From Polyangiaceae bacterium (lineage in GTDB: Bacteria; Myxococcota_A; Polyangia; Polyangiales; Polyangiaceae), in NCBI GenBank assembly GCA_041389765.1, contig JAWKRE010000002.1, forward strand, positions 75,908-139,907: 64,000 nucleotides of DNA, in the 5' to 3' direction. The translations under genes were made by a program, and so were the position numbers. The notes below the pieces were generated by a model. That model searched no databases. It was not told the origin of the DNA and saw only the letters and a program-made list of their open reading frames with translations. Below, piece by piece: positions 61,791 to 63,770 of this stretch (the stretch's first letter is position 1; every line of letters starts with the position of its first letter).

Positions 61791-62328
61791 TGTCCTGGAG
61801 GCCGATGCGACCGAGCGCTGTGCGCGGTGCGTTGCGGGCCTGTTGCTGGCGGCCCTGGAGGACAGTCCGGCGCCCGGTATTTCGTGGTGGGGCTGGATGC
61901 CGCGGGCAGAGCAGGGCTGTCCCGCCCCCGCGCGCTGTCGGCGGCGTTTGCCGAGGTCCGGCGCCGTACGGGTCAAACGCGCTGTCGCACGTGCGGGCCG
62001 GGCGTGGGATGTCCCGTGCATGGATGAGGGATCTCGTGGGTACGGACACCCATCGGGATGGGGTGTCCGAAGCGGCTCTGGAGGCCACCGAGATCCGAGG
62101 AAATCGGGATGGTAGTTCGAGACCGTCCCCGTGAAGAGGAGAGTGTGAAGCGGGGCGTGCGCGCGACGACGAGGACGCGCTTGTAGCCAGCTCGTCGCCT
62201 CGGTGGCCGGTACGCCAGCGGGTGCGAAGAGGAGGGCGCCTGGGTGATCGGGCGTTTCCTGTGGTGGAGGAACGGAGGAGCAAGCTCGCTCGCGCGCGTC
62301 CGACGACGAGCGGCGGGAGCAGGCTGGC

Positions 62329-62802
62329 TTGGTGCCGCTCGCGGTGACGGACGTGCGCCAGTGGACCTTCTGTCCAGTGCTGTGGCACCGGCGCATGATG
62401 CCGCATCGTGCCTCTCGCGAGCGATCGACTGTGTGCGGGCTTCTGCGACGCGGTGCTGGAGGTGCCATCGTCGGAAGGTCCACCGCGGAGGCTGTGCCCG
62501 GTGGAGGTGAAGCGCACGGCGGGAGGCGTCTCGGCCCACCACGTTGCGCAGCTTGCGGGCTACGCGATGCTGTTGGAGGAGCAGGAGGACTTGCCCGAGG
62601 GTTCGGTGGGGCAGGGCTTCCTGCTGCTACCGGCCGACCGTCTGGTTCCTGTCGAGCTCGACGCGCGTTCTCGCGCAGCCTTCACCGGCGCGCTTGCCGC
62701 GATCCGCACGATGCTCGACCGAGAGCAGTTCCCCAGCCGACGAGGGCCTGAGGCTTCTGCCCGCGATGCGAGTACGTTCGCTTCTGTGGCCACGTCCTCT
62801 GA
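62329..62802 (+). pseudogene. cas4: cas4 (RecB-like nuclease with Fe-S Cys cluster), disrupted by two compensating frameshifts
   Basis: Frame 1 N-terminus has LAVTDVRQWTFCPVLWHRR (the YxYCPR-type motif). Frame 2 (62408-62745) has GFCDAVLE (motif II Asp), PVEVKRT (ExK), and HHVAQLAGYAMLLEE (QxxxY). Frame 1 again gives GFCPRCEYVRFCGHVL* (the C-x2-C-x5-C cluster), ending at 62802. Confidence 0.6.
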
Positions 62803-62932
62803 TTCTGAAGGACCAGGCGCTCCCGGCACCCCGGGGTTCGCGTTTCGGGTGAACCCCCCGATCTTTGACAAGAAGGAGGTCCACCCAAACCCATCCCCGA
62901 AGGCACAGCTTTTTCCGAGAATGCGCCCGCCC
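62803..62932 (+). promoter_or_regulatory. Putative CRISPR leader
   Basis: 130-nt AT-enriched segment between the cas4 stop and the first repeat. Array polarity is inferred from degenerate repeats at the distal end and the repeat 3' handle ...GGGGACTGCAAC. Confidence 0.5.
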
Positions 62933-63770
62933 CTCCATCGAGATCCCCGCCGACAAGGGGACTGCAACGAACCCACTTTTCCAACACCGCTTCCACGCTT
63001 CCCCCAAGCCCTCCATCGAGATCCCCGCCGACAAGGGGACTGCAACTGTCGATGACATCGACCGCCGCCGTGACTTTCCAGCCTCCATCGAGATCCCCGC
63101 CGACAAGGGTGACTGCAACACCGCATCCGGCTTGCGTGTGTACGGGGCCGGGGCTCCATCGAGATCCCCGCCGACAAGGGGACTGCAACGCGTCACGACG
63201 TGCGGGAATCGGCCGCATCGGATGACCTCCATCGAGATCCCCGCCGACAAGGGGACTGCAACAGAGGGCGGGCGAAAACATGGTATGCGGCGTATTCCTC
63301 CATCGAGATCCCCGCCGACAAGGGACTGCAACGTGCAGCCAGGGCCTGCGTGTGCGGCGGCTTGTAGCCTCCATCGAGATCCCCGCCGACAAGGGGACTG
63401 CAACATCGGGTTCTCGCCGGAGTACCGACCTCGGGAGCGGTCCTCCATCGAGATCCCCGCCGACAAGGGACTGCAACGAACTGGATCGCCAGCAGGTTGA
63501 AGTCGCCGCCGACGTCCTCCATCGAGATCCCCGCCGACAAGGGGACTGCAACGAAGGCGCCAAGGAGGGAGAGGCGAATTCTCTGTGGTCTCCTCCATCG
63601 ATCCCCGCGACAAGGGGGACTGCAACTGTGTGAGGCGGTATCGAGAAAGCGATGAGCCTATCCCTCCATCGAGATCCCCGCCGACAAGGGGACTGCAACG
63701 CGGCACCAGGATCTTCACCAGCGCGCCCTCGACCCTCCATCGAGATCCCCACCGACAAGGGGACTGCAAC
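62933..63770 (+). CRISPR. CRISPR array: 12 repeats of 36 nt (CTCCATCGAGATCCCCGCCGACAAGGGGACTGCAAC), 11 spacers of 34-42 nt
   Basis: Repeats start at 62933, 63011, 63083, 63154, 63227, 63298, 63369, 63443, 63517, 63593, 63664 and 63735. Repeats 3, 6, 8, 10 and 12 carry indels or substitutions. The CCCC-loop-GGGGAC-NGNAAC architecture resembles type III/I-associated repeats. Confidence 0.9.

What the first reader, a model, noticed from the sequence alone, without database searches (positions are those of the whole stretch)
62248..63770. CRISPR array with type III-like repeats whose only adjacent cas gene is a doubly frameshifted cas4; no cas1/cas2 or effector genes in the window
There are 12 repeats and 11 spacers with a plausible leader. 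The only flanking cas signal is cas4, whose N-terminal CP motif, RecB motifs II/III/QxxxY and C-terminal C-x2-C-x5-C are spread over two frames (a +1 then -1 shift). Cas4 normally accompanies cas1-cas2 in type I/II/V adaptation modules, not type III-style repeats, and cas1/cas2 are missing between cas4 and the leader. Either this is a decaying locus, indel errors are present, or the array is serviced in trans. Repeats 3, 6, 8, 10 and 12 also carry indels in G-runs, which would fit a sequencing-error explanation.
Basis: partly seen in the sequence, partly recalled or inferred. Interest (0 to 1): 0.58.

Follow-up and report, generated by a model that had tools for sequence, protein, structure and literature searches.

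The report
Leftover CRISPR array with dead cas4
This is the stump of a type I-B CRISPR-Cas immune locus in a Polyangiaceae myxobacterium: the leader and a 12-repeat array survive, cas4 is a wrecked pseudogene and the other cas genes are absent from the window, which is an ordinary way for such loci to decay.

Summary
The CRISPR array is real: 12 repeats of 37 nt and 11 unique spacers at 62932-63770, + strand. The cas4 remnant at 62329-62802 is also real.

The repeats are not type III-specific. The five loci that encode the closest intact Cas4 proteins (44-60% identity) all read cas8b-cas7-cas5-cas3 (cas6 wherever the contig reaches), then cas1-cas2-cas4, then a ~111-nt leader (549 nt in L005), then repeat(s). 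These are type I-B systems. Their 37-nt repeats share the same hairpin, and one carries the same ACUGCAAC 3' end as the window. Their leader block is also kept in the window.

In this lineage cas4 is the last gene before the leader. So cas1 and cas2 are missing from upstream of cas4, not from between cas4 and the leader. No trace of cas1, 2, 3, 5, 6, 7 or 8 exists in the 62 kb upstream.

cas4 is more than doubly frameshifted:
- a 119-nt deletion removes 39 conserved codons
- three 3-nt deletions
- a 1-nt deletion
- an in-frame TGA

These cannot be homopolymer read errors.

However, the last ~8 kb of the window carries roughly 16-20 short indels. They fall in two unrelated neighbouring genes and in the repeats. 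Some single-base indels may therefore be consensus errors.

Verdict: an ordinary decaying or orphan type I-B locus. Trans use cannot be tested.

The parts
62200..62247 (+). Possible relic of the cas2 3' end and the ancestral cas4 ribosome-binding site and start. GGAGG lies at 62231-62235. CTG at 62240-62242 aligns with the ATG of the L007 cas4. The TGA at 62245-62247 aligns with the cas2 stop. This is weak.
   Evidence: MAFFT alignment A2, columns about 62-130. There is no significant blastn or tblastn support, so this is only a suggestion.
62329..62802 (+). cas4 pseudogene. The lesions are a 3-nt deletion at about 62376 (CPR>CP), a 119-nt deletion with its junction at 62406/62407, 3-nt deletions at about 62436 and about 62621, a 1-nt deletion at 62734/62735, and an in-frame TGA at 62749-62751. 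The original stop is at 62800-62802.
   Evidence: Three-frame translation. Pfam, NCBIfam and PADLOC Cas4 hits on the reconstruction. Intact homologues of 166-255 aa, most of them 203-234 aa. Protein alignment A1 and DNA alignment A2. Coordinates.
62406..62407 (+). Junction of the 119-nt internal deletion in cas4. It removes the block VxETPKMALGR...RRYGL...RRFN, which holds 13 nearly invariant residues, and it shifts the frame.
   Evidence: Alignment A2 has gap columns 288-406 in the window row only. A1 columns 95-133 show the same gap.
62749..62751 (+). TGA in the ancestral cas4 frame where the three relatives in the DNA alignment have CGA or CGC (Arg). It lies 17 codons before the stop and upstream of the C-x2-C-x5-C cysteines.
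62803..62931 (+). CRISPR leader. The conserved block at 62843-62885 reads TTTCGGGTGAAC-C6-GATCTTTGACA-AGAA-GGAGGTCCACC. TTGACA lies at 62865-62870.
   Evidence: Leader alignment A3 with four related loci has more than 30 invariant columns in the leader part. The simple sigma-70 scan finds no full promoter.
62932..63770 (+). CRISPR array with 12 repeats of 37 nt and 11 spacers of 33-41 nt. Repeats 1, 2, 5, 7, 9 and 11 match the consensus. R3 has a T insertion, R4 has C>G at position 1, R6 and R8 lose one G, R10 has three indels, and the terminal R12 has G>A.
   Evidence: The repeat hairpin is UCCCC-N8-GGGGA at -10.7 kcal/mol and is weakened in R3, R6 and R8.

Best explanation
This is the 3' stump of a type I-B CRISPR-Cas locus of a lineage found in Polyangiaceae and in related metagenomic contigs. 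The intact layout is cas6, cas8b-cas7-cas5-cas3, then cas1-cas2-cas4, then a ~111-nt leader (longer in one relative), then an array of 37-nt repeats.

In the window everything upstream of cas4 has been lost or moved away. About 1 kb of unassignable non-coding DNA now separates cas4 from an unrelated monooxygenase gene. cas4 has since accumulated inactivating lesions.

Shown: the homology, the gene order in relatives, the absence of other cas genes from the window, and the lesions.

Inferred: the leader with its TTGACA element may still drive transcription on the + strand. Without a Cas6 and a Cascade encoded elsewhere, the transcript cannot be cut into crRNAs (normally at the 3' base of the CCCC/GGGG hairpin, leaving an 8-nt ACUGCAAC 5' tag) or used. 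Without Cas1-Cas2 the array cannot grow. It is therefore most likely an inert, slowly decaying orphan array.
For: - The closest Cas4 proteins (P0001-P0027) are 44-68% identical, and the near-full-length ones are about 200-255 aa.
- Five loci encoding them (L004, L005, L007, L008, L009) all show ...cas1-cas2-cas4 followed, on the same strand, by a leader and repeat(s). The leader is 111-113 nt in four loci and 549 nt in L005. L007 has only one repeat.
- The L004 proteins type as I-B: Cas8b PDLC01387 E 6.6e-91 over its full length, Cas3b E 3.5e-179, Cas7b, Cas5b and Cas6. TIGR02585, the I-B Cas7 model, scores 172.6 bits against a cutoff of 72.75.
- The repeats are homologous. All are 37 nt with a CCCC-N8-GGGG hairpin, and the window shares the loop GCCGACAA with L004. 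L008 and L009 have exactly the window's GGGGACTGCAAC 3' end next to an apparently intact cas operon.
- The leader block is conserved in all five loci, including the window.
- The cas4 lesions are documented.
- tblastn and blastn with the relatives' cas genes find nothing else in the window.
- The terminal repeat is the mutated one, as expected for a leader on the cas4 side.
- A survey of myxobacterial genomes reports I-B as widespread and variable in gene arrangement. It also reports CRISPR-Cas as often lost stochastically between strains, and Polyangiaceae as the family with the most subtypes (PMC11237760).
Against: - Six of 12 repeats are still identical and the leader block is intact. That fits recent loss, but also fits continued use.
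- Only 230 nt downstream of the array are visible, and the rest of the genome is unknown. A second locus with the same repeat cannot be excluded.
- The last ~8 kb of the window is unusually rich in short indels in unrelated genes. Part of the apparent decay, namely the 1-nt deletion in cas4 and the indels in R3, R6, R8 and R10, may be consensus error rather than biology.
- No remnant or breakpoint signature of the lost genes was found. The event could be a deletion, a rearrangement or the acquisition of a fragment.
Confidence: 0.8

Rival explanations
1. The array is still in use. A second CRISPR-Cas locus elsewhere in the genome supplies Cas6 and an effector complex that process and use these crRNAs. 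That locus could be type I-B with the same repeat, or a type III system that lacks its own cas6 and adaptation genes. This reading is compatible with cas4 being dead.
For: - The leader block and six or more repeats are perfectly conserved.
- The ACUGCAAC tag is a functional variant in L008 and L009.
- Myxobacterial genomes normally carry two or more subtypes. Their III-B clusters often lack cas6 and adaptation modules (PMC11237760).
Against: - No cas gene of any type lies in the 62 kb upstream.
- Four internal repeats have a damaged hairpin or a changed register, if those indels are real.
- No spacer matches the phage, plasmid or IMG/VR collections. That is uninformative either way.
Confidence: 0.2
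2. cas4 and the repeats are intact in the organism. All the lesions are sequencing or assembly errors in a low-quality stretch, and the locus is otherwise ordinary.
For: - The neighbouring FAD monooxygenase gene (59959-61169) needs 5 frame changes but is otherwise colinear with a 404-aa homologue. It has no stops and no large deletions.
- The gene at 55274-58956 has its conserved blocks in frames 2, 1, 0 and 1. A further return to frame 2 was seen only by eye.
- The repeats differ from their consensus by 6 indel events against 2 substitutions, which is unusual for natural mutation.
- The leader C run is 6, against 7-8 in relatives.
- ORFs of 1.5-3.9 kb between 0 and 55 kb are intact, so the excess is local.
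Against: - A 119-nt deletion, three separate 3-nt deletions and a CGA>TGA substitution are not homopolymer-type errors.
- The absence of about 8 kb of cas genes upstream cannot be a base-calling error.
- Several of the neighbours' frame changes are not in homopolymers.
Confidence: 0.06
3. The array belongs to a type III system, as the repeat shape suggested to the first reader.
For: Only the generic features point this way: a repeat of about 37 nt, a weak hairpin and an 8-nt ...GCAAC 3' tag. Cas6-processed type I-A, I-B, I-D and type III arrays share these features (own knowledge).
Against: - Every related array found sits next to type I-B genes (cas8b, cas7b, cas5b, cas3). None sits next to a called gene with a Pfam hit to cas10, csm or cmr families.
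- There are no type III genes in the window.
Confidence: 0.03

Closest known systems
Type I-B CRISPR-Cas loci of Polyangiaceae and related metagenomic contigs (L004 JGI 3300056599; L005 Polyangiaceae MAG GCA_016712345.1; L008 GCA_021778125.1; L007; L009)
   Same: - The Cas4 sequences are homologous (44-60% identity).
- cas4 is the last gene before the leader.
- The leader block is conserved: TTTCnGGTGAAC-Cn-GnTCTTTGACA...GGAGGTTCACC.
- The repeats are 37 nt with a CCCC-N8-GGGG hairpin.
- L008 and L009 have the identical GGGGACTGCAAC repeat 3' end.
   Different: - The window lacks cas6, cas8b, cas7, cas5, cas3, cas1 and cas2.
- Its cas4 is a pseudogene.
- The array is short (12 repeats, against 26-76 in L004, L005 and L008), and several repeats vary.
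- The 5' half of the repeat is specific to this organism and is absent from the public collections scanned.
Orphan CRISPR arrays left after loss of cas genes, for example Enterococcus faecalis CRISPR2 (PMC4580645, PMC5491264)
   Same: An array with a leader but no adjacent functional cas genes. It could only work if Cas proteins come from another locus.
   Different: - E. faecalis CRISPR2 is a type II-A-compatible array, and its trans use has been shown experimentally.
- Here a cas4 pseudogene marks the former operon, and trans use is untested.
Myxobacterial CRISPR-Cas survey (PMC11237760)
   Same: The survey reports I-B as widespread but diverse and variable in gene arrangement in myxobacteria. 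It also reports CRISPR-Cas as often lost stochastically between strains.
   Different: - I did not find the cas1-cas2-cas4 order or this repeat family described in the sections of that paper I read.
- MxI-B, the myxobacteria-specific subtype described there, has a Cas4-Cas1 fusion. These loci do not.

Membership tests
CRISPR array (generic) | Three or more near-identical direct repeats of 23-47 nt, separated by unique spacers of similar length | tested here: met
   12 repeats of 37 nt and 11 unique spacers of 33-41 nt.
CRISPR array (generic) | A leader on one side and the degenerate repeat at the far end | tested here: met
   The leader is conserved with four related loci. Terminal R12 carries a G>A change.
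Type I-B CRISPR-Cas locus | Repeat and leader homologous to arrays that adjoin typed I-B operons | tested here: met
   Searches show the homology.
Type I-B CRISPR-Cas locus | Effector genes cas8b, cas7, cas5 and cas3, plus cas6, adjacent to the array | tested here: not met
   tblastn with the L004 and L005 proteins finds nothing at E below 0.07 anywhere in the window.
Type I-B CRISPR-Cas locus | Adaptation genes cas1 and cas2 present | tested here: not met
   There are no protein or DNA remnants. Only a doubtful 48-nt cas2 tail remains.
Cas4 (PF01930 / TIGR00372) | Sequence match above the curated threshold | tested here: inconclusive
   The frame-corrected translation scores 32.2 bits on Pfam (cutoff 22.7). 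It scores 51.7 bits on TIGR00372, below the cutoff of 65, and matches only profile positions 57-179.
Cas4 (PF01930 / TIGR00372) | An uninterrupted ORF of about 170-230 codons with the N-terminal Cys, the RecB motifs and the C-terminal C-x2-C-x5-C | tested here: not met
   Two frame changes, a 39-codon deletion and a TGA lie before the C-terminal cysteines.
Type III-associated array | cas10, csm or cmr genes adjacent here, or next to related arrays | tested here: not met
   None appear in the window. None appear among the Pfam hits of the called genes in the five related loci.
Orphan CRISPR array | No functional cas gene anywhere nearby in the genome context | tested here: inconclusive
   This holds for 62 kb upstream. 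Only 230 nt downstream are visible, and the rest of the genome is unavailable.
Rfam CRISPR-DR families | Match to a curated direct-repeat covariance model | tested here: not met
   No CRISPR-DR hit at E up to 1 in 59000-64000.

The most novel reading that the evidence does not exclude
The cas-less array, with its perfectly kept leader block, is retained under selection. Another system in the same genome uses it in trans. An example would be a type III-B effector lacking its own cas6 and adaptation module, as is common in myxobacteria. A relic of a type I-B locus would then serve as the spacer store for a different CRISPR type.
Probability: 0.1. Interest if true: 0.4.

Novelty: new member of a known kind. 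Interest (0 to 1): 0.14.

Why it matters
It matters little beyond annotation. The finding shows how a type I-B locus in a large myxobacterial genome erodes: the operon goes first, the last gene (cas4) decays, and the leader and array persist.

It also corrects a tempting mis-typing. An array ending in ...GCAAC is not thereby type III, and cas4 directly before the leader is the native order in this lineage.

Two practical warnings follow. The last ~8 kb of this sequence is indel-rich, so gene calls there should not be trusted without reads. The conserved leader block of this I-B lineage may be of modest interest for studies of leader recognition.

Tried and rejected
- Source genome. Exact look-ups of the neighbouring Hsp20 protein, in two start variants, found nothing on record.
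- Repeat in GTDB genomes. A scan with the repeat 3' 22-mer gave 3 single matches without arrays, which are chance hits.
- Repeat in metagenomes. The 22-mer gave 0 hits. A handle-free 25-mer gave one hit inside a coding region with no array around it, also chance. I could therefore find neither the same repeat elsewhere nor any DNA beyond position 64000.
- Synteny. The closest relative by FtsK (90% identity, GCA_964275065.1) diverges immediately downstream of ftsK and is no help.
- Spacers. There are no matches inside the window beyond 12-nt chance hits. Nothing significant turned up in 50,697 phage records or 72,556 plasmids, where every hit had E of 0.07 or more. Eight IMG/VR exact scans with 21-24-nt spacer cores all returned 0. 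No spacers are shared with the related loci.
- Upstream 61.2-62.3 kb. There were no Pfam hits on any ORF, no coding-type GC3 signal, no inverted repeats and no plasmid match. blastn found nothing against the relatives' cas DNA in that stretch.
- Hairpin at 61215-61231. CCCCCGACAAGGGGG looks like a repeat stem-loop, but its alignment score (23) lies within the null range of 23-31. I rejected it as a relic repeat.
- Rfam. No family matches the repeat.

Full report
**The array**

Reading 60500-64000 directly and with the repeat finders shows a textbook CRISPR array. An anchored parse gives 12 repeats of 37 nt (consensus CCTCCATCGAGATCCCCGCCGACAAGGGGACTGCAAC). It also gives 11 spacers of 33-41 nt, all unique, at 62932-63770.

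Six repeats equal the consensus. The others differ as follows:
- R3 has a T inserted in the G run.
- R4 differs at its first base.
- R6 and R8 each lack one G.
- R10 has three indels: GA lost, one C lost, one G gained.
- The last repeat, R12, has a G>A substitution rather than an indel.

The repeat RNA folds into a 5-bp UCCCC/GGGGA stem with an 8-nt loop, followed by a 7-nt single-stranded tail (-10.7 kcal/mol). The R3, R6 and R8 variants weaken this stem. No other array exists in the window, and no Rfam family matches the repeat.

**The cas4 remnant**

Three-frame translation shows Cas4-like sequence running in frame 1, then frame 2, then frame 1 between 62329 and 62802. The stitched translation passes the Pfam Cas_Cas4 threshold (32.2 against 22.7 bits). 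It fails the NCBIfam equivalog threshold (51.7 against 65), matching only profile positions 57-179 of 180.

A search of 5.8 billion proteins found 27 relatives. The near-full-length ones are about 200-255 aa and 44-60% identical.

The protein alignment and the DNA alignment with three related genes give the lesions below.
- A 3-nt deletion turns the nearly invariant CPRVLW into CPVLW.
- A 119-nt deletion has its junction at 62406/62407. It removes 39 codons, including 13 nearly invariant residues, and this is what causes the first frame change.
- Two further 3-nt deletions lie at about 62436 and about 62621.
- A 1-nt deletion lies at 62734/5.
- A TGA at 62749-62751 replaces a conserved Arg codon, upstream of the C-terminal cysteine cluster.
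- A nearly invariant Asp is His in the window copy.

A short stretch at 62200-62247 may be the old cas2 tail, the ribosome-binding site and an ATG>CTG start. That alignment is weak.

**What the locus once was**

Look-ups of five contigs encoding the closest intact Cas4 proteins all show the same layout. It runs cas8-cas7-cas5-cas3, with cas6 where the contig reaches it, then cas1-cas2-cas4. cas4 is followed on the same strand by a leader and repeats. The leader is 111-113 nt in four loci and 549 nt in L005. L007 shows only one repeat.

The L004 proteins type as I-B:
- In PADLOC, Cas8b scores E 6.6e-91 over its full length and Cas3b scores E 3.5e-179, and Cas7b, Cas5b and Cas6 also hit.
- In NCBIfam, the I-B Cas7 model TIGR02585 scores 172.6 bits against a cutoff of 72.75.

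The related repeats are also 37 nt and keep the CCCC-N8-GGGG hairpin. L004 has the identical stem and loop. L008 and L009 have exactly the window's GGGGACTGCAAC 3' end next to an apparently complete operon. So the ACUGCAAC tag is a natural variant of the usual AUUGAAAC, not decay.

The leader carries a block conserved in all five loci, including the window. It reads TTTCnGGTGAAC, a C run, GnTCTTTGACA, then GGAGGTTCACC.

The repeat is a type I-B family repeat, not a type III marker. cas4 directly before the leader is the native order.

**What is missing**

tblastn with every Cas protein of L004 and L005 hits only cas4 in the 64-kb window. Sensitive blastn of 60900-62420 against the relatives' cas DNA finds nothing upstream of about 62320.

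The 1 kb between cas4 and the next gene has no coding signal, Pfam hit, inverted repeat or database match. It contains only a 21-nt tandem repeat.

The rest of the window encodes ordinary myxobacterial chromosomal genes. These include Ser/Thr kinases, a sigma-54 activator, histidine kinases, FtsK and Hsp20. FtsK places the organism in Polyangiaceae. It is 90% identical to an unnamed NCBI assembly and about 84% identical to Byssovorax, Minicystis and Sorangium.

**Real decay or sequencing error?**

The FAD-dependent monooxygenase gene next door (59959-61169, - strand) is colinear with a 404-aa homologue. It needs five frame changes yet has no stops and no large deletions.

The gene at 55274-58956 is one gene by homology to proteins of 993 and 1110 aa. 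Its conserved blocks lie in frames 2, 1, 0 and 1. I also saw a further return to frame 2, but only by eye.

By contrast, ORFs of 1.5-3.9 kb between 0 and 55 kb are intact, several with full-length domain matches.

The repeats act as an internal control, because they start out identical. They differ from their consensus by six indel events against two substitutions. From general knowledge, that ratio is unusual for natural mutation.

So the last ~8 kb holds a local excess of short indels. This is as well explained by a poor consensus as by a cluster of pseudogenes. The available data cannot separate the two.

The excess does not rescue cas4. The 119-nt and 3-nt deletions, the nonsense substitution and the absent ~8-kb operon are not errors of that kind.

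**Mechanism**

The best-supported reading is an inert relic. The leader may still be transcribed. With no Cas6, Cascade, Cas3 or Cas1-Cas2 nearby, the transcript can be neither processed nor used, and the array cannot be extended.

Trans use by a second locus remains possible. Myxobacteria usually carry several subtypes, and their III-B clusters often lack cas6 and adaptation genes (PMC11237760). This is untestable here. The repeat was not found in GTDB genomes or JGI metagenomes, and the source genome is not in the collections.

No protospacers were found in phage, plasmid or IMG/VR collections, or in the window itself.

**Verdict**

The type III and gene-order arguments are wrong. This is an ordinary remnant of a known kind of system, so interest is low.

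Noticed in passing
window 59959-61169 (-): An FAD-dependent monooxygenase gene is 69% identical to a 404-aa homologue annotated as 3-(3-hydroxyphenyl)propionate hydroxylase. It is colinear with that homologue throughout but needs five frame changes (61104, about 60931, 60676, 60445, 60421). It has no stop codons and no large deletions.
   Followed up: yes
window 55274-58956 (+): This is one gene by homology to proteins of 993 and 1110 aa: a conserved N-terminal domain, a Pro/Ala-rich linker and a conserved C-terminal region. 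Its conserved blocks lie in frames 2, 1, 0 and 1 between 55.7 and 57.0 kb, with a further return to frame 2 seen only by eye. A TGA lies at 56668. Together with the monooxygenase gene, cas4 and the repeats, this makes the last ~8 kb of the window locally indel-rich, while 0-55 kb looks clean.
   Followed up: partly
window 62843-62885; L004 10730-10775; L007, L008, L005 leaders: A leader block is conserved across five type I-B loci whose Cas4 proteins differ by 40-55%. It reads TTTCnGGTGAAC, C(6-8), GnTCTTTGACA, N8, GGAGGTTCACC. It forms an imperfect inverted repeat (GGTGAAC/GTTCACC) around a TTGACA hexamer. It could be a promoter plus a binding site for a regulator or integration factor.
   Followed up: partly
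L004, L005, L007, L008, L009: These type I-B loci place cas4 after cas1-cas2, as the last gene before the leader. Canonical I-B has cas4 before cas1-cas2 (own knowledge). Their Cas8b has no Pfam or NCBIfam hit and is recognised only by a PADLOC model.
   Followed up: partly
L007 5903-6050: This locus has cas1-cas2-cas4 and a conserved leader but only a single repeat downstream. The repeat is CCTCCACTCCACCCCCCGCAGACAAGGGGACTGAAAC. Either the Logan assembly collapsed the array, or this is a locus with one repeat.
   Followed up: no
window 61665-61800: A 21-nt tandem repeat (TCCTGGAGAGGGAGTCCGGTG, about 6.4 copies) lies in the unassignable 1-kb spacer between the monooxygenase gene and cas4.
   Followed up: no
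window 61215-61231: A terminator-like hairpin, GCCCCCGACAAGGGGGC followed by a T-rich tail, shares CGACAAGGGG with the CRISPR repeat. This 10-mer occurs nowhere else outside the array. Its alignment score to the repeat is within the null range, so I treat it as chance.
   Followed up: yes
window 63870-63967: A degenerate 6-nt tandem repeat (ACGGCG, about 15 copies) lies just after the array. The 3' end of a minus-strand gene enters from beyond position 64000, with its stop at about 63978.
   Followed up: no
window 20349-20376 and 20416-20443: Two identical 28-mers (CCCGCCCACGAGACTGCCAGTCTGACCG) are separated by 39 nt between convergent genes. They contain the palindrome GACTGCCAGTC.
   Followed up: no
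window 25620-25733: A 28-nt unit (GCGGGCGGAGGAGGTCAGTCGAGCGGGC) occurs in three identical overlapping copies 22 nt apart, with a 79% copy 42 nt upstream. It lies in an intergenic region.
   Followed up: no
window 59049-59132: The Hsp20 gene ends in a 15-nt tandem repeat. This gives it a repetitive AQ(A/V)GS C-terminal tail.
   Followed up: no
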